Positions 18 to 10,972 of a DNA stretch of 32,000 nucleotides are shown here, one piece after another; position 1 is the stretch's first letter; each line of letters starts with the position of its first letter. Below the pieces are notes generated by a model. The model saw nothing but the letters and a program-made list of their open reading frames with translations, was not told the DNA's origin and ran no database searches. The translations under genes and the position numbers were made by a program. The DNA is from Opitutales bacterium (GTDB taxonomy: Bacteria > Verrucomicrobiota > Verrucomicrobiia > Opitutales > Coraliomargaritaceae): assembly GCA_049606355.1 (NCBI GenBank), contig JBMYVL010000001.1, positions 106,871 through 138,870 on the forward strand, in the 5' to 3' direction.

Positions 18-2333
18 ATGTCCGACTCCCTCCATTCGCAGACCCTCACCGGCGTGCTCGAGCGCATTATCTTTTTCAACGAAGAAAATGCCTACTGTGT
101 CGCTGAAATAGCCGTGGCCGAGGGCAAACAACCGATCACGGTCTTAGGGAATCTGCCTGGAGTGAACTGCGGTGAGACGCTGCAGTTGAGTGGGCAATGG
201 ACGCGCCACCCCAGCCACGGTGACCAATTCAAAATCACGCAGTTCAAATCGCAGTTACCCGCTTCGATTCACGGCATCCGTAAATACCTCGGTAGCGGCA
301 TGGTACACGGCATTGGCAAATCCTACGCCAAAAAAATCGTCGACCACTTCGGTGCCGATACCCTGCGAGTGATCAGCGAAGATTCTGGGCGCCTACACGA
401 GGTCCCCGGCATCGGTAAAACACGGGCGAAATCGATCAAAGCAGCCTGGGAAGCACAAGTTGCCGTACGCGATGTGATGGTCTTCCTGCAGACTTACGGT
501 GTCACACCGGCACAATGTGTACGCTTGGTTAAAAAATATGGCAGCGGCGCGAAACGAATTTTACAGGACGAGCCCTACCGCCTCGCCGAAGACATCGAGC
601 GCATCGGCTTTAAAACCGCAGATAAATTGGCACTCAATCTAGGCTTTCCAACCAACTGCAAGGAGCGCGTCGATGCTGGCTTGCTTTACACCATGCAAAC
701 ACTTGAAGACGCAGGGCATACGCTCGGTACACAGCAGGCGCTGGTCGAGCAGGCGCTCAGTCTGCTGGGCGTTGATGCGGCACTGATTCAACAGCGCATC
801 CGTGCGCTGCTAGAGCAAGGTAAACTGTTCGGTATCGAGGCCTTTACTCCCAAACAGGAATCCCTCGGCCCCGCCTGCCAACGTCCGCCGCTCGCTGGCG
901 CCGAGAAGCGTATCGCCACCGCACTACAGCGCATCGATACCACCGATTCCGCGATACCCCCAATCAAGATCGATGCTGCGGTAGCATGGGCTCAGGATAA
1001 AGCCGGTTTTACTTTTGCAGCGCAACAGGCGGCTGCTCTGAAACAAGCGCTCCAAGCGAAGGTCGCGGTCATTACCGGTGGGCCCGGCACGGGGAAGACC
1101 ACGATTTTACGCGCCATCGTTGATATCGCCCGCGCTAAACGTGCTCGCGTACAACTCGCCTCCCCTACGGGTCGAGCGGCGCAGCGCTTGGCTGAGGCGG
1201 CAGGAGCACCTGCCAGTACCATCCATCGACTTCTTAAATATGACGGTGCATCACGTAGCTTCGTCTACAATGCCGAAAATCCATTGCCCTGCGATCTCCT
1301 CATTGTTGATGAAGCCAGTATGCTGGATACCCGCCTCGCGGCCAATTTGTTCGACGCGGTCCCCAGCGCTGCACATCTCATCCTGGTCGGCGATGCGGAT
1401 CAGTTACCTTCCGTCGGCGCTGGCAATGTCCTTGGCGATTTGATGGCGGCGCCTCCCGCACAAGTGACGCGCCTGGATACGATCTTTCGCCAAGGAGAAA
1501 CCAGCGGGATCATCACCACTGCCCACGCTATCCTCAACGGCGAAACACACCCCGGCAAAACCAGTACCAGCTTACGCGCCCTCGATCCCAATCAAGACTT
1601 TACTTTTATTGAAGCCGAAGACGCCGATCAATGTGCGCAGGCTGTCTCCTATCTTGCCCGCGAGTACCTACCTAAAGCTCACGGCATCGATCCCATTAAG
1701 GATCTGCAAATACTGTCGCCGATGCACCGCGGGCTGGCAGGGATCGCCGCGCTCAATGCGGCCCTACAAGACAGTCTCAACCATACAGTGAAGGCGCAGT
1801 CACGACTACGCTCCGACCCCGACTATACCCCCGCCCGCCAAAGCCATTTCCGCGAAAAGACCGGCAAACCCCTCCCATCCGAACTCGCCTATGGCGCCAC
1901 CACTTTCCGTATCGGCGACAAGGTCATCCAAACCCGCAACAATTACGACAAAGCGATTTTTAACGGCGATACGGGCATCATACAGGGCATTAGCCCAGAC
2001 CGATCGGGGCTTACCGTTGATTTTGCCGGCGAAGCAGTTGAATTCACCAAAGGAGAGCTGGGTGAATTGCAGCTCGCCTACGCGATCAGTATCCACAAAA
2101 GCCAAGGGAGTGAGTATCCGATCGTCATCATTCCATTGCTCAAGCAGCACTACATGATGCTGCAGCGCAACTTAGTCTACACAGGGATTACCCGCGCCCG
2201 CAGAAAAGTCTATCTGGTCGGATCGGTCGATGCTTACGCCATGGCCATTAATAATCATAAGACCGAAGTGCGTCGCACCCACCTGCCCGCTCGCCTGAGA
2301 CAGGCGATGTCCAGCGAAGCGAAAAACGACTAA
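18..2333 (+). CDS. recD2: RecD2-type SF1 ATP-dependent DNA helicase
   Basis: 771-aa ORF with an ATG start. SF1 helicase motifs are present: GGPGTGKTT (Walker A), LIVDEASM (Walker B), LVGDADQLPSVGAGN, SIHKSQGSEYP and VYTGITRARRKV. The N-terminal helix-hairpin-helix-like repeats (GIGKSYAKKIVDHFG, GIGKTRAKSI) are typical of stand-alone RecD2 rather than RecBCD-type RecD. Confidence 0.9.
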   Translation: MSDSLHSQTLTGVLERIIFFNEENAYCVAEIAVAEGKQPITVLGNLPGVNCGETLQLSGQWTRHPSHGDQFKITQFKSQLPASIHGIRKYLGSGMVHGIGKSYAKKIVDHFGADTLRVISEDSGRLHEVPGIGKTRAKSIKAAWEAQVAVRDVMVFLQTYGVTPAQCVRLVKKYGSGAKRILQDEPYRLAEDIERIGFKTADKLALNLGFPTNCKERVDAGLLYTMQTLEDAGHTLGTQQALVEQALSLLGVDAALIQQRIRALLEQGKLFGIEAFTPKQESLGPACQRPPLAGAEKRIATALQRIDTTDSAIPPIKIDAAVAWAQDKAGFTFAAQQAAALKQALQAKVAVITGGPGTGKTTILRAIVDIARAKRARVQLASPTGRAAQRLAEAAGAPASTIHRLLKYDGASRSFVYNAENPLPCDLLIVDEASMLDTRLAANLFDAVPSAAHLILVGDADQLPSVGAGNVLGDLMAAPPAQVTRLDTIFRQGETSGIITTAHAILNGETHPGKTSTSLRALDPNQDFTFIEAEDADQCAQAVSYLAREYLPKAHGIDPIKDLQILSPMHRGLAGIAALNAALQDSLNHTVKAQSRLRSDPDYTPARQSHFREKTGKPLPSELAYGATTFRIGDKVIQTRNNYDKAIFNGDTGIIQGISPDRSGLTVDFAGEAVEFTKGELGELQLAYAISIHKSQGSEYPIVIIPLLKQHYMMLQRNLVYTGITRARRKVYLVGSVDAYAMAINNHKTEVRRTHLPARLRQAMSSEAKND

Positions 2334-2381
2334 TTGGTAAGTTCCGCAGCGTCCCTGCTATTGTTTGGCAGGACAACCACC

Positions 2382-3917
2382 GTGAACTTACGCCTCATTT
2401 TTGGAGATCAACTGTCGACACAGTTATCCAGCCTCAGCGACCTCGACCCACAGGAGGATTGCTTGTGCCTGTTTGAAGTGCGCCACGAGGCCACTCAAAT
2501 CAAACATCATAAAAAGAAAATCGCGTTTCTGTTTGCGGCCATGCGACATTTTGCCGCCGAGCTTCGTGAACGCGGCTACCATGTTCATTATAGCCGATTG
2601 GATGACCCCGAAAATACCGGTACTTTTTTCGGTGAGCTACAGCGTCTGGTCCAACAGCTCAAACCGGATAAAATAATCCTCACGGCACCCAGTGAGTTCC
2701 GCATTGAACAAGAGGTGAGCACTTGGTCGAAGCGTCTTGGTATAAGCATCGAGCAGCGTGAAGATACACGCTTCCTGGCCACTCGAACTGCCTTCCGAGA
2801 CTGGGCGGCAAACCGCAAACAGTTGCGCATGGAGTTCTTCTACCGAGAAATGCGCCGCACACATGCGATCTTAATGGATGGCGAGCATCCCGTCGGCAAT
2901 CAGTGGAATTTCGATAGTGAAAACCGCAAGCGCCCGCCAGCGGATCATATTAACCCTCAAACCTACACCGCGACTCCGGATGCAATCACCTGCGAAGTGC
3001 TGGATCTGGTCGAACGCGAGTTTGGCGATCACTTCGGCGACCTGCACCCGTTTCATTTCGCAGTCACACGCACCGAGGCATTACAAGCTTTTGAGCAATT
3101 TATCGACAAGCGCCTCCGCCACTTCGGTGACTACCAGGATGCGATGCTGACCGCTGATCCGTGGATGTACCACAGCCATATTGGACATTACCTAAACTGC
3201 GGACTATTACTGCCTTTGGAGTGCCTTCATAAAGTAGAGCAGGCCTACCGTAGCGGTAACGTGCCCCTCAATGCCGCGGAGGGCTTCATTCGGCAGATCC
3301 TCGGCTGGCGTGAATTTGTGCGTGGGATTTACTGGCTACACATGCCCGACTATGCGGACTGCAATGCGCTTCAGGCGAAGCGTCCGCTGCCTGCAGTCTA
3401 TTGGGCAGCACCCACACAGATGAACTGCCTGCACCAGTGTGTGCGCAGCACCGAGCAACATGCCTACGCACACCACATCCAACGGCTTATGGTCTTGGGT
3501 AACTTTGCCTTGCTGGCAGGACTCAATCCAAGAGAAGTCAACGAGTGGTACTGGATTGTATATGCGGATGCGTATGAGTGGGTCGAACTGCCCAACGTTA
3601 GCGGCATGGTGCTCTTTGCTGATGGCGGGCGGTTGGCCTCGAAACCTTACGCTGCGAGCGGTGCTTACATCAATAAAATGTCCGACTACTGTAAAGCTTG
3701 CCGCTATAAGGTAAGTAAAAAAAATGGACCGGATGCCTGCCCCTTTAATTACCTCTACTGGGATTTCCTCATCCGCAACCGTGAGCAACTGGGGCGCAAC
3801 CCTCGGCTCGGCATGCCGTATCGTACTCTGGATAAAATGACTACCGAAAAGATCGCTGCCATTCAGAGCGATGCCACGCGATTCTTGACTGCGCTGGATG
3901 CAGGTGATCCCGTATAA
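2382..3917 (+). CDS. phrB: FeS-cluster cryptochrome/photolyase family protein (FeS-BCP/CryPro, PhrB/CryB-like, probable (6-4) photolyase)
   Basis: Recognised by eye as the COG3046 photolyase-related family from LRLIFGDQLS, HHKKKIAFLFAAMRHFA and HIQRLMVLGNF. Cys spacing C-x2-C-x12-C (YCKACRYKVSKKNGPDAC) plus an upstream Cys (MNCLHQC) matches the [4Fe-4S] ligand pattern of PhrB-type enzymes. The ORF opens at TTG 2334 directly after the recD2 stop. GTG 2382 (VNLRLIF...) gives the family-typical N-terminus, so the start is uncertain by 48 nt. Confidence 0.85.
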   Translation: MNLRLIFGDQLSTQLSSLSDLDPQEDCLCLFEVRHEATQIKHHKKKIAFLFAAMRHFAAELRERGYHVHYSRLDDPENTGTFFGELQRLVQQLKPDKIILTAPSEFRIEQEVSTWSKRLGISIEQREDTRFLATRTAFRDWAANRKQLRMEFFYREMRRTHAILMDGEHPVGNQWNFDSENRKRPPADHINPQTYTATPDAITCEVLDLVEREFGDHFGDLHPFHFAVTRTEALQAFEQFIDKRLRHFGDYQDAMLTADPWMYHSHIGHYLNCGLLLPLECLHKVEQAYRSGNVPLNAAEGFIRQILGWREFVRGIYWLHMPDYADCNALQAKRPLPAVYWAAPTQMNCLHQCVRSTEQHAYAHHIQRLMVLGNFALLAGLNPREVNEWYWIVYADAYEWVELPNVSGMVLFADGGRLASKPYAASGAYINKMSDYCKACRYKVSKKNGPDACPFNYLYWDFLIRNREQLGRNPRLGMPYRTLDKMTTEKIAAIQSDATRFLTALDAGDPV

Positions 3918-3933
3918 CTTGAGTCGGTCAACA

Positions 3934-4680
3934 ATGTCGCCCAAACCAACTCTGGAGCAGCGCCTCGCTGCCACTCGCCGCCCAAATAATCGTAGCGTGA
4001 TCATGCGCCAGCAGTGGCACTCATTGCTGTATCTCCACTGGGCGGTTGATCCGGCACTCTTGACTTCCCGACTGCCGGCGGGCCTATCCATCGATACTTT
4101 TGACGGTCGCGCTTATCTTGGCATCGTACCCTTTTATATGCATGGCTTACGCCCACGCTTCGGACCTCCTGCACCAGGCATCTCCTATTTTCCTGAACTC
4201 AACCTACGTACTTATGTCTACGATACAAAAGGCCGTCCGGGTGTCTGGTTTTTCTCCCTCGATGCCGATAGTCGCCTATCAGTATGCATCGCACGCCGTG
4301 CCTTTAGCCTCAATTACCACTATGCACGCATGCGCTACCGACGCAGCAACTCGGGTCATGTGAGGCTAACTTGCCAAAGACCGAACCAAGCGGAGCAGCG
4401 CTACGCCTATCGAGCCAGGCAATCGATCGGCCCGGCACAACCCGGCTCACTGGCTTTCTTTCTCACTGAGCGCTACTATCTCTTCGCGCAGACGAAGCAC
4501 GGCGACTTACGCATCGGCCAAATCTACCATACGCCGCATCACTTGTTTGATACAGATATCAGCACCTACAGCAAAGCGCTCTTCAAATTGAATGGTTTTA
4601 CGGAGCCGAAAGATGACTATACGCATGCCATCCTAAGTCCACAGGTCGACGTATCGATTTATTCACTACAAAAAATATAA
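3934..4680 (+). CDS. DUF2071 (YqjF) family protein, function unknown
   Basis: Family-typical blocks are WHSLLYLHWAVDPALL, LPAGLSIDTFDGRAYLGIVPFYM, FPELNLRTYV and PGVWFFSLDADSRLSVCIARRAFSLNYHYARM. ATG 3934 lies 16 nt after the photolyase stop. The track ORF opens earlier (3898) but would overlap the photolyase. Confidence 0.85.
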   Translation: MSPKPTLEQRLAATRRPNNRSVIMRQQWHSLLYLHWAVDPALLTSRLPAGLSIDTFDGRAYLGIVPFYMHGLRPRFGPPAPGISYFPELNLRTYVYDTKGRPGVWFFSLDADSRLSVCIARRAFSLNYHYARMRYRRSNSGHVRLTCQRPNQAEQRYAYRARQSIGPAQPGSLAFFLTERYYLFAQTKHGDLRIGQIYHTPHHLFDTDISTYSKALFKLNGFTEPKDDYTHAILSPQVDVSIYSLQKI

Positions 4681-4681
4681 G

Positions 4682-5248
4682 ATGCCGCATCGCTACATCT
4701 CTTGCTGGACTGACACGTTCCCGAAGATCGGCATCGATCTCGGTTACAGTGCGCAACAGCCCTCTTGTGGATTGGCTTTCGAGAACGGCACCGAGGCAAT
4801 CGCTTTGAAATTCGGCGACTGCCTGAACGCAGTCACCGAACAAATCAGTAAAAATGGCCCACACCACCTCATCGTGGAAGCGGTTCTCTCGACTTACCAT
4901 CGTCCTGACGGCAACCCCGACCTACGCGGCACATTTGAAAAAGGGCGTGGCTGGTATCACGGCCCCGGTGTGAGTACCTACGCGGCAGCATTGCGCTTCC
5001 TGACGGTGCTTGATGAGCAACTTCCTCCAGCAGTACAATTACCCCTAACAGAGGGATTCTTAAGCTATAAGCCAGCACGTACAACTCACATTGAAGATGC
5101 CCAGCGACTCATCAAAGAGTACGGCAACGCCGAGTGCTTCAGCCCACGTGAAGGCAGTACTCCGATTTGTGCAGCGATCCACACACCGCCTGAAATTCGT
5201 CGCTATAACTCACCCCGACGTCCGCAACGAAACGCTGACACGACTTGA
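4682..5248 (+). CDS. hypothetical protein, predicted RNase H-fold / RuvC-like nuclease (motif-level call only)
   Basis: 188-aa ORF whose ATG lies 1 nt after the DUF2071 stop (TAAgATG). Three motifs appear in RuvC-like order and spacing: KIGIDLGYS (Asp19), HHLIVEAVLS (Glu66) and THIEDAQRL (His136-x2-Asp139-Ala). Coding status is fairly secure from tight packing in the operon; the nuclease assignment is inference. Confidence 0.55.
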   Translation: MPHRYISCWTDTFPKIGIDLGYSAQQPSCGLAFENGTEAIALKFGDCLNAVTEQISKNGPHHLIVEAVLSTYHRPDGNPDLRGTFEKGRGWYHGPGVSTYAAALRFLTVLDEQLPPAVQLPLTEGFLSYKPARTTHIEDAQRLIKEYGNAECFSPREGSTPICAAIHTPPEIRRYNSPRRPQRNADTT

Positions 5249-5305: not shown

Positions 5306-8300
5306 GTGCGACATAGAAAAAATTCAATACGCCTGCGTGGCATCCGCCAGAATAACCTCAAAGGCTTCGACTTGGACGTGCCCCTTGGGAAACTGACGGT
5401 CGTCACTGGACTGAGCGGCGCAGGCAAGTCCTCACTCGTTTTTGAGACCCTGCACGCAGAAGGGCAACGTCGCTACGTAGAGACCTTCTCCCCTTACACG
5501 CGGCAGTTTATGGAACTACTGGATCGACCTAAAGTCGACAGTGTAGAGAACATCCCCCCCTCTATTGCGATCCAACAATCGAATACCGTTAAGACCTCAC
5601 GCTCAACCGTCGGCACCATTACCGAACTGTGTGACTACTTTAAGGTCTGGTTCGCACATACCGCGACACTGTATGATCCGGACACGGGGGACGCGATCGA
5701 TAATGAATCGCCGCAAAGTGTTTGGCCGAAACTCCTCAAAGCATACAAAGGGAAATCCATTCTCATCTGCTTCGCAGTAAGCAAGCCCGAGCAGCTAACA
5801 TGGGGCGATATTTTACGGTCGCTAAAAAGTCAGGGTTACACGCGCGTGGTGTGTCGGTCGAGCCCAAGTAATCCTCCCAACATGCAGCGTATCGATGCAC
5901 GACTCATCGAAAAACTGGAACAGCAGGATTCCGTAAGCAGCTTACTTGTCATCCAAGATCGCATTGCTCAAATAGCGAGTTCAGTCCGCACACGTTGTAT
6001 AGAGGCGCTGACACAAGCTTTTCGATTTGGAAACGGAAGTATCCGTATACTCAATACAGAATTTAAAGTAATTGAATCCTTCACTGAGGGTCTTACTTCA
6101 ACCAAATCAGGTCGCAGCTTTCGCGCACCCACACCGACTTTATTTTCATTCAACTCTCCCATCGGCGCCTGCTCTCAATGCCGTGGCTTTGGCCGTGTGA
6201 TCGAGATCGACGATCGCCTAGTGGTACCAGATCGTCATCTGTCTATTGACGATGGCGCCATCCGTGCGTTTCACGGAAGTGTCTATAGCGAAAGTTTGCA
6301 CGACTTACAACGAGCTGCAGCCAAGCACCAAATCCGTACCAACATTCCTTGGTCTGATCTCAGCGCCAAAGAACAGGCCTTCGTCATGCAGGGCGAACCG
6401 AACTACCAAGAAGGGAGCAATCAATGGTACGGTGTGCGACGCTTCTTCAATTGGCTGGAGAGCAAGGTGTATCGAATGCACGTACGCGTATTTCTCTCCA
6501 AATTCCGGAGCTACAACACCTGCCCTGCCTGCCGTGGCGCACGTCTACAACCCGAATCGCTATACTGGAGATGGCAAGGGTATACACTTCCTGAACTCTA
6601 CCGTATGAGTGTTAGTGAGCTTGCCTCATTACTGCAGAAACAATACCAACCAAATGCTACAACGAAGCTTCCCACTGAGCCAGATGCAGCTCTTCATGGA
6701 ATCATTAATCGACTGTCTTTCCTCAAGGATGTAGGGCTTGGTTACTTAAGTTTGGATCGCAGCTCACGCACACTTTCCGGCGGTGAAACCATGCGGGTTA
6801 ATTTAACTGCCTGCCTCGGCTCTGCACTGGTAGACACGCTGTTTGTCCTCGATGAGCCCTCGGTGGGATTGCACGCTCGGGACATCAACCAACTAGTTCA
6901 AATCCTTCGACGTTTATCTGACATGGGTAACACTGTCGTCGTTGTTGAACACGATGAGGAAGTGATGCGCGCAGCTGACAATCTGATCGAGATTGGACCC
7001 AAACCAGGAATTAACGGCGGGCAACTTTGCTATCAAGGCAACTACCAGCGTATCCTCGATTCGGATACAGTAACTGGGCGTTACCTCTCCGGAAAGGAGA
7101 CGATCCCTGTGCCGACTCAACGCCGCCCCTCGTGCACGAACCCTAAAGACTTCTCGCTTAGTGTATATGGAGCGGAAAAATATAATATAGACGACCTTAC
7201 GGTTCATATACCACTCCAGCGTTTAGTCTGCTTAAGTGGCGTGTCCGGATCCGGGAAAAGTACGCTGCTCAACCAAGTAATTTACCAAAACCTACTCGCC
7301 CGCAAAGGGCTGAGTGTTGAAGACCCGGCAAACATTAAAGACATTGAATCCAGTCTTCCCATCTCTGAAGTGGTGTTGGTCGACCAAAGTCCTGTAAGTA
7401 AGACACCACGCTCAAATCCTGCCAGTTACTGTAAGGCATGGGATGAGATTCGTAAGTCCTTCGCAAAACTCGATGCCGCCCAGTCTGCAGGCATGGTCCC
7501 CGGAGATTTTTCATTCAATAGCGGCGACGGTCGCTGCCCAACTTGCTCTGGCTTAGGCTATGAACGGGTCGAAATGCAATTCGTATCCGACTTATTTGTG
7601 CCCTGTGAAGACTGTGCAGGCAAACGCTTCAGAGCCGAAGTCCTCGAGATTGAATACCGGGAGCATAGCATTGCCGACATCCTCGAGATGGACATCAGCG
7701 ATGCGCTGCTGTTGTTCCAGGATGAGCCAAAGATTCTCCAAGCGCTACAACCCCTGATCGAGGTCGGCCTCGGCTACCTCAAGCTCGGGCAACCGCTTAA
7801 CACTTTGTCCGGCGGGGAGTCGCAGCGACTCAAACTCATCCGCTATCTGGGCAAAGTAAAGAGTTCCCCTGCACGCACACAAACGACCGCTGGTGCGGCA
7901 CACGCCTTGATCCTAATTGATGAGCCCACCACCGGGCTTCATCGCGCCGACGTGAAGCGCCTCATCGCCGTATTGCAAGGCTTGGTCGACGTCGGTCATT
8001 CCCTGATCGTTATCGAACACAACCTCGATCTATTAAAAGTTTCAGATTGGATTATAGAGATGGGCCCGGAAGCGGGTAGCAAAGGTGGCCACATCGTTGC
8101 TGAAGGCCCCCCTGAGTCGATCGCACAAAGCGACTGTGCCACAGCTGCGCATTTAAAGGCCGCACTGCAGGCGAAAGCGTCGAGTGAATTGTGCCCTGCC
8201 CTTGGAGTCGCTGCACCTGAGCCACAGCATGGCAGGGTAGCGAACGTGAGTGACCAGCTGTGTATACGCGGAGCGCGTGAACACAACTTACAGAATATTA

Positions 8301-10972
8301 ATTGCGAGATTCGCCACAATCAAATGACTGTGATCACAGGCGTGTCCGGATCTGGAAAATCCTCGCTTGCGTTTGATATCATCTTCGCGGAAGGCCAACG
8401 GCGCTTCATGGAATCCATGTCCGCCTATGCGCGGCAATTCGTTGAGCAAATGCCGCGGGCCGAAGTGGATGAACTGATAGGGATCGCGCCCACGGTTGCG
8501 ATCGAGCAGCACGTTACCAAAGGCACGCGTAAATCAACAGTCGCGACTATTACCGAAGTCGCTCAATACCTGCGCCTTCTTTTTGCGCGCATTGGAGTGC
8601 AGCACTCCCCAACCACCGGCGTAGCCGTAACGCATCAATCGGAAGCCACACTGCTCAAACGCTTGCAGCAGCAACTCAAAACCTGGCAAAAAAGCCCTAC
8701 CCAGTTCAAATCAGGGCGACATACTTGCAAGTCCCTATACCTCTGCGCGCCCTTAGTCCGCGCCCGAAAAGGCCATCATGAACCACTGGCAAATTGGGCG
8801 CGCGACCACGGCTACCGCTACCTGCGTATTGACGGCGAAGTCATTGCCTTGAGTGAATTTCAAAAGCTCGATCGCTACCGAGAACATGACATCGATCTAG
8901 TCGTTGCCGAGATGTCACCTAGGGTGCCCACTGCAAGTGAAGCCTTGAGGGAAGCCCTTCGATACGGCAAAGGGAGTGCCTTCCTGATGATGCCAAGTGG
9001 AGTGCTGCTTTCTTGGTTCTCGACCAAGCGCACCGACCCTACTACCGGCGAAGCCTTCCCGGAACTCGAACCCAAGCATTTCTCATGGAACAGCCCGCGT
9101 GGTTGGTGCCCTACTTGTCGCGGCTATGGGCAACTTTATGATTGGTCGGGCAAAGAAGACAAAGTCGCCATGGATCATCTGGATGACGCTGAGCAGGGTG
9201 ACCGTTGCCCCGACTGCCAAGGAGCGCGCTTAAACCCATTGAGCTGTGCGGTCCGTTTACCGCTTAAGAAAACCAAGACTGTTTCCCAAATTTTAAATCA
9301 CGCCTCAGTCGCAAAAAATCATGCCGCAACAGTCTCATTGCCGGAACTACTTCGGTTAACGCCGCGCCGTTTACTCCAAGTGTTATCTGCCATACGCACC
9401 ACGGTCCGCAGTCAAACAATCCTCGATGAACTGCTTCCAGAGATTCAGGAACGCATGCACTTTATGGACCAGGTCGGCCTCGGTTACCTCGAGCTCGATC
9501 GATCCACCGCCTCACTCTCCGGCGGCGAGGCACAGCGTATTCGTCTTGCCGCACAACTTGGGTCTAATCTCTCCGGTGTGCTCTACGTACTCGATGAGCC
9601 TTCCATCGGTCTCCACGCACGCGACAACGCAGCACTCATTCAGATGCTTGAGCAACTGCGACGACGTGGGAATACCCTGGTCGTGGTTGAGCATAATGAA
9701 GCGACGATGCGTGAGGCGGATACAATCATCGACCTCGGCCCTGCCGCAGGCATTCACGGCGGACACATCGTCGCACAAGGGAGCTTAGCGCAGCTCAAAA
9801 AATGTCCTGCATCGATAACGGGGCGCTATCTGCGCCAAGCCATCCCGCACCCCCTACGCGGCGGCTATCGTGAGCTGCCTGCAGCGTGGTCCCCGCGCAA
9901 AAAACTGAGTAATCGCAATTGGATCACTTTGCAGGGGGCTGCCTTGCGTAATCTTAAAGGTTTTGATGTCTCTTTACCCAAGCAACGCTTATCAGTGATT
10001 TGTGGCGTGTCCGGAGCCGGCAAAAGCACGCTCGTCCGAGATTTGCTCAAACCACTGGTAGAAACTGCAATCCGAACAAAATCGTCGAAGCTGTCTGCAA
10101 AAAGCGCTGGTGTCGTAGTCCCGACGAATCGACATGCCTTCAAGGCCATCCACCATGCCGATGATTTGCGCAAAGTGATCGAGGTTGATCAAAGCCCAAT
10201 TGGCAAAACTCCGCGTTCGACACCAGCCACCTACATTGGTGCCTTTGACTACATTCGGAAAATATATGCGGGTTTACCCGAGGCGCGATTGCGCGGTTAC
10301 ACCGCAAGCACTTTTTCATTCAACACTAAAGGTGGGCGCTGCGAAACCTGTAAAGGTGCCGGACGAGTGAAGTTGGAAATGAATTTCATGCCCGACACCT
10401 ATGTCACCTGTGAAGACTGCAACGGGCGGCGCTATGGTGTGGAGATCGAGGACTTGCGCTGGAATGGCAAAAGTATCGCAGACGTTCTGGCCATGAGCTT
10501 TGAAGAAGCTGTAACCTTCTTCAGTTTCCACGCACAACTCAGCCAGCTGATGCAGTTGATGGTCGAGACTGGCCTAGGTTATATTAGTTTAGGTCAATAT
10601 TCTCCGACGCTTTCCGGAGGCGAGGCACAGCGTATGAAGCTAGTCAGCGAATTAGCCAAGGGCCAACCCACCTTTAAGGAGCGCCAGTATAATTTAGCTT
10701 CGGCCAATCTCTACCTGCTCGAAGAACCGACCATTGGGCTGCACCTCAGTGATGTCGAACGCCTGATTCACTTGCTGCATCGCCTCGTCGACAAAGGCCA
10801 TACCGTCATTGTGATTGAGCATCACTTGGAGGTCATTGCGGATGCGGATTATTTGGTAGAACTCGGCCCAGATGGTGGCGACGCAGGAGGCGAGCTTTTG
10901 TACCAAGGTCCCGTTAAGAGTCTCAGGCAGTGCAAGGAAAGTGTGACGGCCCCCTTCCTTGAACAAAAATAA
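5306..10972 (+). CDS. tandem-fused double UvrA-like ABC ATPase (two complete UvrA units, four nucleotide-binding domains)
   Basis: 1888-aa uninterrupted ORF with a GTG start. It has four Walker A motifs (GLSGAGKSS, GVSGSGKST, GVSGSGKSS, GVSGAGKST) and four ABC signatures (LSGGETMR, LSGGESQR, LSGGEAQR twice). It has four Walker B motifs (VLDEPSVGLH, LIDEPTTGLH, VLDEPSIGLH, LLEEPTIGLH). UvrA-specific blocks are present in both halves: AEGQRRY/F, FSFNSP..C..C.G.G, VDQSP(V/I).KTPRS.PA(S/T)Y and the CxxC...CxxC zinc modules. The second unit starts near LCIRGAREHNL (nt ~8258). Confidence 0.9.
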   Translation: MRHRKNSIRLRGIRQNNLKGFDLDVPLGKLTVVTGLSGAGKSSLVFETLHAEGQRRYVETFSPYTRQFMELLDRPKVDSVENIPPSIAIQQSNTVKTSRSTVGTITELCDYFKVWFAHTATLYDPDTGDAIDNESPQSVWPKLLKAYKGKSILICFAVSKPEQLTWGDILRSLKSQGYTRVVCRSSPSNPPNMQRIDARLIEKLEQQDSVSSLLVIQDRIAQIASSVRTRCIEALTQAFRFGNGSIRILNTEFKVIESFTEGLTSTKSGRSFRAPTPTLFSFNSPIGACSQCRGFGRVIEIDDRLVVPDRHLSIDDGAIRAFHGSVYSESLHDLQRAAAKHQIRTNIPWSDLSAKEQAFVMQGEPNYQEGSNQWYGVRRFFNWLESKVYRMHVRVFLSKFRSYNTCPACRGARLQPESLYWRWQGYTLPELYRMSVSELASLLQKQYQPNATTKLPTEPDAALHGIINRLSFLKDVGLGYLSLDRSSRTLSGGETMRVNLTACLGSALVDTLFVLDEPSVGLHARDINQLVQILRRLSDMGNTVVVVEHDEEVMRAADNLIEIGPKPGINGGQLCYQGNYQRILDSDTVTGRYLSGKETIPVPTQRRPSCTNPKDFSLSVYGAEKYNIDDLTVHIPLQRLVCLSGVSGSGKSTLLNQVIYQNLLARKGLSVEDPANIKDIESSLPISEVVLVDQSPVSKTPRSNPASYCKAWDEIRKSFAKLDAAQSAGMVPGDFSFNSGDGRCPTCSGLGYERVEMQFVSDLFVPCEDCAGKRFRAEVLEIEYREHSIADILEMDISDALLLFQDEPKILQALQPLIEVGLGYLKLGQPLNTLSGGESQRLKLIRYLGKVKSSPARTQTTAGAAHALILIDEPTTGLHRADVKRLIAVLQGLVDVGHSLIVIEHNLDLLKVSDWIIEMGPEAGSKGGHIVAEGPPESIAQSDCATAAHLKAALQAKASSELCPALGVAAPEPQHGRVANVSDQLCIRGAREHNLQNINCEIRHNQMTVITGVSGSGKSSLAFDIIFAEGQRRFMESMSAYARQFVEQMPRAEVDELIGIAPTVAIEQHVTKGTRKSTVATITEVAQYLRLLFARIGVQHSPTTGVAVTHQSEATLLKRLQQQLKTWQKSPTQFKSGRHTCKSLYLCAPLVRARKGHHEPLANWARDHGYRYLRIDGEVIALSEFQKLDRYREHDIDLVVAEMSPRVPTASEALREALRYGKGSAFLMMPSGVLLSWFSTKRTDPTTGEAFPELEPKHFSWNSPRGWCPTCRGYGQLYDWSGKEDKVAMDHLDDAEQGDRCPDCQGARLNPLSCAVRLPLKKTKTVSQILNHASVAKNHAATVSLPELLRLTPRRLLQVLSAIRTTVRSQTILDELLPEIQERMHFMDQVGLGYLELDRSTASLSGGEAQRIRLAAQLGSNLSGVLYVLDEPSIGLHARDNAALIQMLEQLRRRGNTLVVVEHNEATMREADTIIDLGPAAGIHGGHIVAQGSLAQLKKCPASITGRYLRQAIPHPLRGGYRELPAAWSPRKKLSNRNWITLQGAALRNLKGFDVSLPKQRLSVICGVSGAGKSTLVRDLLKPLVETAIRTKSSKLSAKSAGVVVPTNRHAFKAIHHADDLRKVIEVDQSPIGKTPRSTPATYIGAFDYIRKIYAGLPEARLRGYTASTFSFNTKGGRCETCKGAGRVKLEMNFMPDTYVTCEDCNGRRYGVEIEDLRWNGKSIADVLAMSFEEAVTFFSFHAQLSQLMQLMVETGLGYISLGQYSPTLSGGEAQRMKLVSELAKGQPTFKERQYNLASANLYLLEEPTIGLHLSDVERLIHLLHRLVDKGHTVIVIEHHLEVIADADYLVELGPDGGDAGGELLYQGPVKSLRQCKESVTAPFLEQK

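What the first reader, a model, noticed from the sequence alone, without database searches (positions are those of the whole stretch)
5306..10972. Single-chain double UvrA: covalent pseudo-dimer with four ABC modules and asymmetric domain loss
Canonical UvrA (~940 aa) works as a homodimer with 4 nucleotide-binding sites. Here one 1888-aa chain carries two full units joined by a ~30-aa linker. Three deviations from canonical UvrA are visible. (i) The CxxC pairs of zinc module 1, which bracket the UvrB-binding region, are absent in both units (ATLYDPDTGDAI...LTSTKSGRSF and GVQHSPTTGVAV...TDPTTGEAF), although the intervening ~150-aa segment is retained. (ii) The segment between the two CxxC pairs of zinc module 2, the insertion domain implicated in DNA clamping, is ~113 aa in unit 1 (CSQC...CPAC) but only 29 aa in unit 2 (CPTC...CPDC), so the pseudo-dimer is intrinsically asymmetric. 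(iii) The fourth Walker B reads LYLLEEPT (Asp to Glu). As far as I recall, UvrA paralogues that do not engage UvrB (Deinococcus UvrA2, DrrC, Ecm16) act outside classical NER. Tandem-duplicated UvrA paralogues have been noted in comparative surveys, but I know of no functional study.
Basis: partly seen in the sequence, partly recalled or inferred. Interest (0 to 1): 0.7.

Follow-up and report, generated by a model that had tools for sequence, protein, structure and literature searches.

The report
Single-chain double UvrA with specialised halves
This gene encodes two copies of the bacterial DNA-damage sensor UvrA fused into one protein whose halves have lost different parts; fused UvrAs are common in this bacterial group and already annotated as UvrA, but they could let researchers study each half of the UvrA dimer separately.

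Summary
ORF 5306..10972 (+) encodes 1888 aa made of two complete UvrA units joined by a disordered linker of about 20-30 residues. It has four Walker A, four Walker B, four signature and four H-loop motifs. No zinc-module-1 ligands remain in either unit. The insertion domain is 113 aa in unit 1 and a 29-aa stump in unit 2. The fourth Walker B reads EE.

It is not an artefact: 79 of 80 related Opitutales loci (Verrucomicrobiota) keep one frame, and none breaks at the junction. All three deviations are conserved across the order.

It is not rare. Most of the 150 best-scoring protein-cluster representatives are fused UvrAs, with named examples from Planctomycetota, Verrucomicrobiota and Chlamydiales. 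Loss of the unit-2 insertion domain is their commonest architecture. The window's two halves sit in matching clades of 46 proteins, which indicates one old fusion.

Both UvrB-binding domains are retained, so this is not a class II UvrA. It is most likely the nucleotide-excision-repair sensor, working as an obligate pseudo-dimer with specialised halves. I could not test whether a second, canonical uvrA, or uvrB and uvrC, exist in the same genome. Verdict: a new variant of a known kind, of moderate interest.

The parts
5306..10972 (+). uvrA, one ORF of 1888 codons plus stop, encoding a fused double UvrA
5306..8170 (+). Unit 1 (residues 1-955): a full UvrA protomer with NBD-I, a zinc-less UvrB-binding domain, Zn2 plus insertion domain, NBD-II and Zn3
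   Evidence: AF2 mean pLDDT 82.8
5408..5431 (+). Walker A 1 (GLSGAGKS, K41), proximal site of unit 1
5675..6109 (+). Unit 1 UvrB-binding domain bracketed by the former Zn1 positions D124/T127 and S265/S268. It contains R230, equivalent to E. coli R216 and invariant in 78/78 sequences
   Evidence: (PF17760, 28.4 bits)
6170..6532 (+). Unit 1 Zn2 (C289/C292/C406/C409) enclosing the 113-aa insertion domain
   Evidence: PF17755, 44.8 bits
7238..7261 (+). Walker A 2 (GVSGSGKS, K651), distal site of unit 1
7535..7615 (+). Unit 1 Zn3 (C744/C747/C767/C770). The DNA-binding basic patch just upstream is degenerate (RQAD instead of RRRR)
   Evidence: (part 1)
8171..8248 (+). Inter-unit linker (residues about 956-981). 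It has no invariant column, is 31-78 aa in the orthologues over a wider window, is rich in A/S/L/T/K/P, and residues 961-980 have pLDDT below 50
8249..10969 (+). Unit 2 (residues 982-1888): a UvrA protomer without an insertion domain
   Evidence: (AF2 mean pLDDT 84.5)
8339..8362 (+). Walker A 3 (GVSGSGKS, K1018), proximal site of unit 2
8606..9046 (+). Unit 2 UvrB-binding domain bracketed by S1101/T1104 and D1244/T1247. The canonical core RKGHH (1154-1158) and RxDG (1174-1177) is conserved, but the R216-equivalent position is not
   Evidence: (PF17760, 64.2 bits)
9107..9217 (+). Unit 2 Zn2 (C1268/C1271/C1301/C1304) enclosing a 29-aa stump in place of the insertion domain
   Evidence: no Pfam hit
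10004..10027 (+). Walker A 4 (GVSGAGKS, K1573), distal site of unit 2
10340..10420 (+). Unit 2 Zn3 (C1679/C1682/C1702/C1705). The DNA-binding basic patch just upstream is largely kept (RRRT)
   Evidence: (part 1)
10709..10732 (+). Fourth Walker B, LYLLEEPT (E1806 in place of Asp), distal site of unit 2. EE is found in 75 of 76 orthologues with a residue there

Best explanation
This is the uvrA gene of an Opitutales bacterium (Verrucomicrobiota). Its product is a single-chain UvrA pseudo-dimer that most likely serves as the cell's damage sensor for nucleotide excision repair.

Shown: it has two complete UvrA units, each with its own pair of ATP sites, giving four sites that all keep the Walker A Lys, Walker B, signature and H-loop. 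Zn2 and Zn3 are intact in both units. A disordered, unconserved linker joins the units. The fusion is old and is shared with a large clade that includes Planctomycetota and other Verrucomicrobiota.

Also shown: the halves have specialised in complementary ways. Unit 1 keeps the insertion domain and the R216-type UvrB/Mfd contact arginine, but has lost most of the basic DNA-binding patch next to Zn3. Unit 2 has lost the insertion domain and that arginine and carries Glu for Asp in its distal Walker B. It keeps the basic patch and the canonical core of the UvrB-binding domain. In both units the four Zn1 ligands are replaced by a conserved set of one Asp plus Ser/Thr.

Inferred: the two units pack like the two protomers of a UvrA dimer, so dimerisation is obligate and independent of concentration. 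The Asp/Ser/Thr set braces the stem of the UvrB-binding domain without zinc. The single insertion domain plays the lesion-holding role, and the protein can reach either DNA strand by binding in either orientation. UvrB is recruited through the retained binding domains, possibly at one preferred side. This built-in asymmetry mirrors the transient asymmetry seen in the M. tuberculosis homodimer, which has a recognition and a support insertion domain and forms A2B1 before A2B2.
For: Order-wide conservation of all three deviations and of all catalytic residues comes. A single frame is kept in 79 of 80 loci, with no break at the junction. The linker is the least conserved segment and is disordered in the model. 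Both UvrB-binding domains pass Pfam's threshold and are confidently modelled. R230, equivalent to E. coli R216, is invariant; R216/E222 form the UvrB/Mfd surface according to PMC3025350. Unit 2's fold is closest to class I UvrAs, including the chain from the UvrA-UvrB complex. The halves are 35-39% identical to each other. Units cluster by position in 124/125 and 113/118 cases. The window's unit 1 and unit 2 clades hold the same 46 proteins. The complementary specialisation also holds as a trend among other fused UvrAs. The R216-type helix is present in 71/97 unit 1 versus 23/84 unit 2, and the RKGxH core in 25/97 versus 40/84. The basic patch is richer in the insertion-less unit in 23 of 36 proteins and poorer in 4. 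A stepwise series is seen in named genomes: Planctomycetota fully intact, Verrucomicrobium sp. GAS474 intermediate, Opitutales fully derived. NCBI annotates the orthologues as UvrA. The gene sits in a housekeeping and DNA-repair neighbourhood, with RecD2 and a photolyase-related protein upstream. The mechanistic parallel comes from PMC11985968.
Against: I could not check whether the same genomes also carry a canonical 940-aa uvrA, or uvrB and uvrC. Each half alone scores below NCBIfam's stricter UvrA equivalog cutoff (907 and 923 versus 1147 bits). The halves are only 40% and 46% identical to E. coli UvrA. Both UvrB-binding domains are the least conserved folded parts. Unit 2 lacks the R216 equivalent, and E222 is not conserved in either unit. 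The motif statistics across clusters are not corrected for shared ancestry.
Confidence: 0.65

Rival explanations
1. It is an accessory UvrA paralogue that works outside classical excision repair, for example in drug or adduct tolerance like UvrA2, DrrC or Ecm16. In this reading a canonical uvrA elsewhere in the genome does the repair work.
For: Zn1 is lost in both units. Unit 2 lacks the R216-type contact and E222 is not conserved. The distal Walker B of unit 2 is altered. Each half is below the NF001503 cutoff. The protein diverges fast within the order, down to 46% identity. The presence of a canonical uvrA could not be excluded.
Against: Class II proteins are defined by absence of the UvrB-binding domain (PMC3167621). 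Here both domains are present and folded, and R230 is invariant. Unit 2's fold is closer to class I than to UvrA2 or Ecm16. There is no biosynthetic or resistance gene context. The fused form is found across the order and in named Planctomycetota and Chlamydiales. That includes C. trachomatis, where the 1786-aa protein is the annotated UvrA.
Confidence: 0.17
2. Unit 2 is a decaying half that no longer senses damage or hydrolyses ATP usefully. It survives only as a scaffold that holds unit 1 in a dimer-like shape.
For: Unit 2 has lost the insertion domain, the R216-type arginine and the Walker B Asp of its distal site.
Against: Unit 2 is the half closer to E. coli UvrA, at 46% versus 40% identity. 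It keeps both Walker A lysines, both catalytic Glu residues, both H-loop His residues, Zn2 and Zn3 in nearly all orthologues. It keeps more of the DNA-binding basic patch than unit 1 (part 1, 89). Its UvrB-binding domain scores higher than unit 1's, 64 versus 28 bits. Glu for Asp keeps the carboxylate and is itself conserved in 75 of 76 sequences.
Confidence: 0.1
3. It is two adjacent uvrA genes merged by a sequencing or assembly error at the junction.
For: None found.
Against: 79 of 80 independent assemblies, including isolates and complete chromosomes, have one continuous frame through the junction. The only internal stop (L039) is at codon 1051, inside unit 2.
Confidence: 0.01

Closest known systems
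Canonical class I UvrA (E. coli, B. stearothermophilus 2R6F/3UWX, M. tuberculosis 3ZQJ/9GA3-5, C. thermocellum 9GXK)
   Same: Each unit has the full class I layout: NBD-I interrupted by a UvrB-binding domain and a Zn2 stem, followed by NBD-II with the Zn3 hairpin. All ATPase motifs are present. Each unit aligns end to end at 40-46% identity to E. coli UvrA, and these are the best structural matches.
   Different: Two protomers are fused in one chain. There are no Zn1 ligands. Only one insertion domain is present per pseudo-dimer. The R216-type contact is in unit 1 only. The basic DNA-binding patch is mainly in unit 2. The distal Walker B of unit 2 reads EE.
Other fused double UvrAs of the same clade (Planctomycetota P0006, Verrucomicrobium sp. 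GAS474 P0002, metagenomic clusters)
   Same: They share the same ancestral fusion: the window's unit 1 and unit 2 clades contain the same 46 proteins. Many members also lack the unit 2 insertion domain (30 clusters with Zn1 intact), and a few also have EE in the fourth Walker B.
   Different: Most keep all four Zn1 cysteines in both units. Planctomycetota P0006 keeps both insertion domains. GAS474 is intermediate, with CCCD and DTCT at Zn1 and a 48-aa stump.
Chlamydial long UvrA (C. trachomatis ct333, 1786 aa; NCBIfam NF001885/PRK00635; Parachlamydia and Protochlamydia proteins of about 1900 aa)
   Same: These are fused double UvrAs annotated as the UvrABC A subunit. The environmental chlamydiae also have degenerate Zn1 in both units (CSSS and CTVT) while keeping both UvrB-binding domains.
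   Different: They fall outside the window's 46-protein clade. Parachlamydia and Protochlamydia keep both insertion domains and a DE Walker B. The window protein scores 1167 bits against the NF001885 cutoff of 3054. I did not obtain a Chlamydiaceae sequence to score directly.
Class II UvrA (D. radiodurans UvrA2 2VF7, DrrC, Ecm16 7SH1)
   Same: They share the UvrA ABC core, Zn2, the insertion domain and Zn3, and they also lack Zn1.
   Different: Class II proteins lack the UvrB-binding domain and act without UvrB (PMC3167621; bioRxiv 10.1101/2022.02.02.478902). The window protein keeps that domain in both units, and unit 2 matches class II structures less well than class I.

Membership tests
UvrA (excinuclease ABC subunit A), class I | Score at or above the curated cutoffs of the UvrA equivalog models | tested here: met
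   Whole protein: NF001503 1831 bits (cutoff 1147) and TIGR00630 1794 bits (cutoff 730). Each half alone passes TIGR00630 (905 and 895 bits) but not NF001503 (907 and 923 bits).
UvrA (excinuclease ABC subunit A), class I | Two ABC nucleotide-binding domains per protomer with Walker A, Walker B, signature and H-loop | tested here: met
   All four sites are present and conserved. The only departure is Asp to Glu in the fourth Walker B.
UvrA (excinuclease ABC subunit A), class I | UvrB-binding domain inserted in NBD-I | tested here: met
   PF17760 scores 28.4 bits in unit 1 and 64.2 bits in unit 2 against a cutoff of 23.3. Model pLDDT is about 87-94 in both.
UvrA (excinuclease ABC subunit A), class I | UvrB/Mfd contact residues equivalent to E. 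coli R216 and E222 | tested here: inconclusive
   In unit 1, R230 is invariant in 78/78 sequences but the E222 equivalent varies. In unit 2 neither is conserved. The alignment is gappy in this domain.
UvrA (excinuclease ABC subunit A), class I | Insertion domain between the two Zn2 cysteine pairs | tested here: inconclusive
   Met in unit 1 (113 aa, PF17755 44.8 bits). Not met in unit 2 (29 aa, no hit).
UvrA (excinuclease ABC subunit A), class I | Three zinc modules (Zn1, Zn2, Zn3) | tested here: not met
   The Zn2 and Zn3 cysteines are conserved in nearly all orthologues in both units. The Zn1 ligands are replaced by D/T/S/S and S/T/D/T. Four zinc sites per chain are expected instead of six.
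UvrA (excinuclease ABC subunit A), class I | Damage-specific DNA binding, loading of UvrB, and support of UvrABC incision | not testable with these tools
   This needs biochemistry or genetics. uvrB and uvrC were not found in the window or in 1.63 Mb of related loci, and a whole-genome search was not possible.
Class II UvrA (UvrA2, DrrC, Ecm16) | Absence of the UvrB-binding domain | tested here: not met
   The domain is present in both units, so the protein is not class II.
Chlamydia-type long UvrA (NCBIfam NF001885 / PRK00635) | Score at or above the curated cutoff of 3054 bits | tested here: not met
   The window protein scores 1167 bits. Representatives of five other fused classes also fail, at 1179-1341 bits.
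Fused double UvrA clade (PVC-type) | Two UvrA units in one reading frame, with unit 1 and unit 2 each grouping with the same unit of other members | tested here: met
   One frame in 79 of 80 loci. Nearest neighbours match by position. The window's unit 1 and unit 2 clades share all 46 proteins.

The most novel reading that the evidence does not exclude
Fusion has turned the UvrA dimer into a fixed A-A' machine. Only one insertion domain holds the lesion, and UvrB is loaded at one defined side. If so, repair needs only one of each accessory element per dimer. The complementary decay seen across fused UvrAs would then be a general evolutionary read-out of which protomer does what in the transiently asymmetric homodimer.
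Probability: 0.3. Interest if true: 0.7.

Novelty: new variant of a known kind. Interest (0 to 1): 0.5.

Why it matters
UvrA works as a homodimer, so its two protomers and four ATP sites cannot normally be mutated one at a time. How a symmetric UvrA2-UvrB2 complex becomes an asymmetric pre-incision complex on the damaged strand is named as an open question in recent structural work (PMC11985968). A natural single-chain UvrA allows each site, each insertion domain and each UvrB-binding domain to be changed independently, and it removes symmetry ambiguity in cryo-EM. Evolution has already run part of the experiment. Across dozens of fused lineages the unit 2 insertion domain is the part most often lost. 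The two UvrB-binding domains tend to keep different canonical motifs, and the DNA-binding patch tends to be kept in the unit that lacks the insertion domain. The repeated replacement of the Zn1 cysteines by Asp/Ser/Thr also suggests that this zinc site is a dispensable brace. None of this changes what UvrA is known to do, so the value is as a tool and as comparative evidence rather than as a new system.

Tried and rejected
- A search for an SOS operator (TGTTC-N4-GAACA, a motif recalled from memory) found 4 two-mismatch hits against 12.5 expected, none near the gene. I could not verify the motif because the source paper is not held.
- Promoter and terminator scans were at or below chance.
- The only single-length relative in the top 150 (P0122, 944 aa) is 69% identical to unit 2 of P0005 and lies on a 3.5-kb contig. 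It is a fragment or split copy, not a canonical UvrA.
- Cluster look-ups gave organism names for only a minority of the 30 representatives.
- Five literature searches found no open-access description of fused UvrAs or of uvrA in Opitutales. My memory of a 'class III' duplicated UvrA in a 2008 review could not be checked and is not used.
- An E. coli-anchored column mapping was mis-registered in the C-terminal half, so the second part is invalid. It was replaced by an alignment-free motif anchor.
- A neighbour-joining tree did not resolve the deep relations among fused classes and E. coli UvrA, because all groups are about 40-49% identical. I therefore claim a single fusion only for the 46-protein clade.
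- tblastn with E. coli UvrB and UvrC found nothing in the window or the loci.
- Full-length structure prediction was not possible (1200-aa limit) and the tool returns no coordinates, so the geometry of the Zn1 substitutes and of the linker could not be measured.
Full report
**Observation.** The ORF at 5306..10972 on the + strand starts with GTG and encodes 1888 aa. A motif scan finds four Walker A motifs (residues 35, 645, 1012, 1567) and four LSGGE signatures. The Walker B motifs read LFVLDEPS, LILIDEPT, LYVLDEPS and LYLLEEPT, and there are four H-loops. CxxC pairs occur only at 289/406, 744/767, 1268/1301 and 1679/1702. Each half matches the UvrA equivalog profiles end to end and solved UvrA structures end to end.

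Aligned to E. coli UvrA, the Zn1 ligands C120/H123/C253/C256 correspond to D124/T127/S265/S268 in unit 1 and S1101/T1104/D1244/T1247 in unit 2. The domain between them is retained at about 137-140 aa in each unit. The segment between the Zn2 pairs is 113 aa in unit 1 and 29 aa in unit 2.

**Not an artefact, and conserved.** A scan of one genome per species returned 240 relatives. The best 80 loci are almost all labelled Opitutales or its families, at 46-75% identity over the full length.
- 78 loci have one uninterrupted frame of about 1550-2460 codons.
- L037 also has an intact 1897-codon frame, and L048 is cut by its contig end.
- L039 has a single TAG at codon 1051 inside unit 2. No locus breaks at the junction.

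Across 78 orthologues the deviations are conserved:
- The Zn1 positions are D (77) / T,S,N / S (75) / T,S,D,N in unit 1 and S,N,H / T,S,N / D (78) / T,N,S in unit 2.
- The Zn2 and Zn3 cysteines, all four Walker A lysines and all four H-loop histidines are kept in nearly every orthologue.
- The fourth Walker B is EE in 75 of 76 sequences with a residue there.
- The insertion segment is 113-118 aa in unit 1 and 16-42 aa in unit 2 in every orthologue.

The linker region is the least conserved part, with no invariant column, a length of 31-78 aa and a composition rich in A/S/L/T/K/P. Residues 961-980 have pLDDT below 50 in the model.

**How common the architecture is.** An exhaustive profile-free search of 1.84 billion cluster representatives with unit 2 listed 150 best hits. 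Doubles rank high partly because both halves add to the score. Even so, 125 of the 150 hold two complete units, and nearly all the rest are fragments of doubles.

I split them into units, aligned 267 units, and checked that all landmarks of the window's two units fall in the same columns. The 118 two-unit proteins fall into the classes below. Here Z means Zn1 ligands present, U means the UvrB-binding domain is present and I means the insertion domain is present; lower case means absent.

| Architecture (unit 1 + unit 2) | Clusters |
|---|---|
| ZUI + ZUi | 30 |
| ZUI + ZUI | 26 |
| zuI + zuI (both units without a UvrB-binding domain) | 21 |
| zUI + zUI | 10 |
| zUI + zUi (the window's type) | 5 |
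| ZUi + ZUI | 4 |
| Other, rarer combinations | 22 |

Named members place these classes as follows:

| Organism | Zn1 (u1/u2) | Insertion domain (u1/u2, aa) | Fourth Walker B |
|---|---|---|---|
| C. akajimensis | DTST/STDT | 113/29 | EE |
| Rubellicoccus peritrichatus | DTSS/SSDT | 117/27 | EE |
| Verrucomicrobium sp. GAS474 | CCCD/DTCT | 119/48 | EE |
| Planctomycetota P0006 | CCCC/CCCC | 106/114 | DE |
| Planctomycetota P0284 | CCCC/CCCC | 34/128 | DE |
| Parachlamydia, Protochlamydia | CSSS/CTVT | 126/116-118 | DE |

A Polyangia protein is a double without UvrB-binding domains. C. trachomatis ct333 (uvrA) is 1786 aa (PMC6686042), and NCBIfam has a 1809-position model for that type. The window protein does not reach that model's cutoff. 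NCBI names the Opitutales proteins simply 'excinuclease ABC subunit UvrA'.

**Age of the fusion.** The two halves are 35-39% identical to each other, which is less than orthologous halves across the order. Among all doubles, a unit 1's nearest neighbour is another protein's unit 1 in 124 of 125 cases, and a unit 2's is a unit 2 in 113 of 118.

In a neighbour-joining tree rooted on E. coli UvrA, the window's unit 1 lies in a clade of 50 unit 1 sequences and its unit 2 in a clade of 46 unit 2 sequences. All 46 proteins are shared, and the four extras are C-truncated fragments. This indicates one fusion followed by co-divergence. That clade holds fully symmetric forms, forms lacking the unit 2 insertion domain, and the window's type. 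The likely order of events is fusion, then loss of the unit 2 insertion domain, then Asp to Glu in the fourth Walker B, then decay of Zn1. Deeper relations among classes are unresolved, so I make no claim about how many fusions occurred overall.

**Can it still work with UvrB?** Class II UvrAs, which act outside classical repair, are defined by lacking the UvrB-binding domain (PMC3167621; bioRxiv 10.1101/2022.02.02.478902). Here both domains pass Pfam's threshold, at 28.4 and 64.2 bits against 23.3. Both are confidently modelled without zinc, with pLDDT of about 87-94. Unit 2's model matches class I UvrAs best (3UWX chain A, E 6e-83; 3ZQJ, TM 0.76), ahead of UvrA2 and Ecm16.

E. coli R216 and E222 form the UvrB/Mfd surface (PMC3025350). 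The R216 equivalent in unit 1 (R230) is invariant in 78 of 78 sequences. In unit 2 it is not conserved, and E222 is variable in both. Conversely, unit 2 keeps the canonical core motifs RKGHH and RxDG and has 21 positions at 90% conservation or more, against 8 in unit 1.

**Complementary specialisation.** The same polarity appears as a trend across fused UvrAs (part 1, 89).

| Feature | Unit 1 | Unit 2 |
|---|---|---|
| R216-type helix motif | 71/97 | 23/84 (6/41 when the insertion domain is absent) |
| RKGxH core motif | 25/97 | 40/84 (29/41 when the insertion domain is absent) |
| E. coli DNA-binding arginines R712/R722/R724/R730, in the window | RQAD | RRRT |
| R724 equivalent basic, in the 78 orthologues | 5 | 61 |

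Among 36 doubles with an insertion domain only in unit 1, unit 2 has more of these basic residues in 23 and fewer in 4. Symmetric doubles show no bias. These counts are per cluster and are not corrected for shared ancestry.

**Proposed mechanism.** In the M. tuberculosis homodimer bound to damaged DNA, the two insertion domains play different roles (recognition and support). DNA contact by an insertion domain and UvrB binding by the same protomer's binding domain exclude each other. A2B1 and A2B2 complexes are interpreted as successive steps (PMC11985968). Deleting the E. coli insertion domain impairs damage discrimination but not Mfd-dependent repair (PMC3025350).

I therefore propose that the fused protein is an obligate pseudo-dimer in which this asymmetry is fixed. 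Unit 1 supplies the lesion-holding insertion domain and a canonical UvrB/Mfd contact. Unit 2 supplies the canonical basic DNA-binding patch and a modified distal ATP site. The protein can address either strand by binding in either orientation. The architecture, conservation, fold predictions and phylogeny are shown. The packing of the units, the zinc-free brace, UvrB recruitment and the repair role are inferred.

**Main gap.** I could not determine whether these genomes also encode a canonical uvrA, or uvrB and uvrC. The window contains housekeeping genes and, upstream on the same strand, RecD2, a photolyase-related DPRP protein, DUF2071 and an unknown 188-aa ORF. RecD2 linkage is kept in 24 loci. 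No uvrB or uvrC homologue lies in the window or in 1.63 Mb of related loci. This gap is why the paralogue rival keeps 0.17.

**Verdict.** The structural interpretation is right, but the hint of a non-repair role is not supported, and the architecture is widespread and already annotated. I found no open-access paper describing the asymmetric, complementary specialisation of the halves. That pattern bears on an open question about asymmetry in UvrA-UvrB damage hand-off. I rate it a new variant of a known kind, with interest 0.5.

Noticed in passing
window 18..5248 (+): RecD2-type helicase (18..2333), DPRP photolyase-related protein (2334..3917), DUF2071 (3898..4680) and a 188-aa ORF lie tightly packed and co-directional just upstream of the double uvrA, possibly forming a DNA-damage operon. 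RecD2-uvrA linkage is kept in 24 of 80 loci, and the whole block is kept in L026 and L030.
   Followed up: partly
window 4682..5248 (+): A 188-aa ORF with no Pfam hit sits immediately upstream of uvrA. A homologue is present in 6 related loci, upstream of uvrA in five of them and downstream in L060.
   Followed up: partly
L039:1942-7557: The double UvrA of this sediment MAG has a single in-frame TAG at codon 1051 (YARQFV*QLP, where the others have Glu). This is either a sequencing error or a young pseudogene, and it is not at the junction.
   Followed up: yes
L048 (JBLHPJ010000193.1): A 5-kb contig binned as Yoonia sp. (Alphaproteobacteria) carries a double UvrA 70% identical to the window's protein. 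This is probably a binning contaminant from an Opitutales genome.
   Followed up: no
L047, L049, L050, L052; P0007, P0012, P0255: Some doubles are much longer: 2131-2461 codons from stop to stop in the Opitutaceae loci, and 2334-2403 aa in three proteins. They carry roughly 250-600 extra residues of unknown nature.
   Followed up: no
L037:19146 onward: The Cerasicoccus maritimus locus holds another open frame of more than 2000 codons about 3.5 kb downstream of uvrA. I did not examine it.
   Followed up: no
P0062-P0150 (21 clusters, about 1570-1680 aa): Fused doubles in which both units lack the UvrB-binding domain ('double class II'). Their unit 2 has almost none of the four DNA-binding basic residues (mean 0.71 of 4), a stronger asymmetry than in the window's clade.
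   Followed up: partly
P0040 / P0284 (Planctomycetota), P0034, P0067, P0099: A minority of doubles have the reverse polarity: the insertion domain is lost from unit 1 and kept in unit 2.
   Followed up: partly
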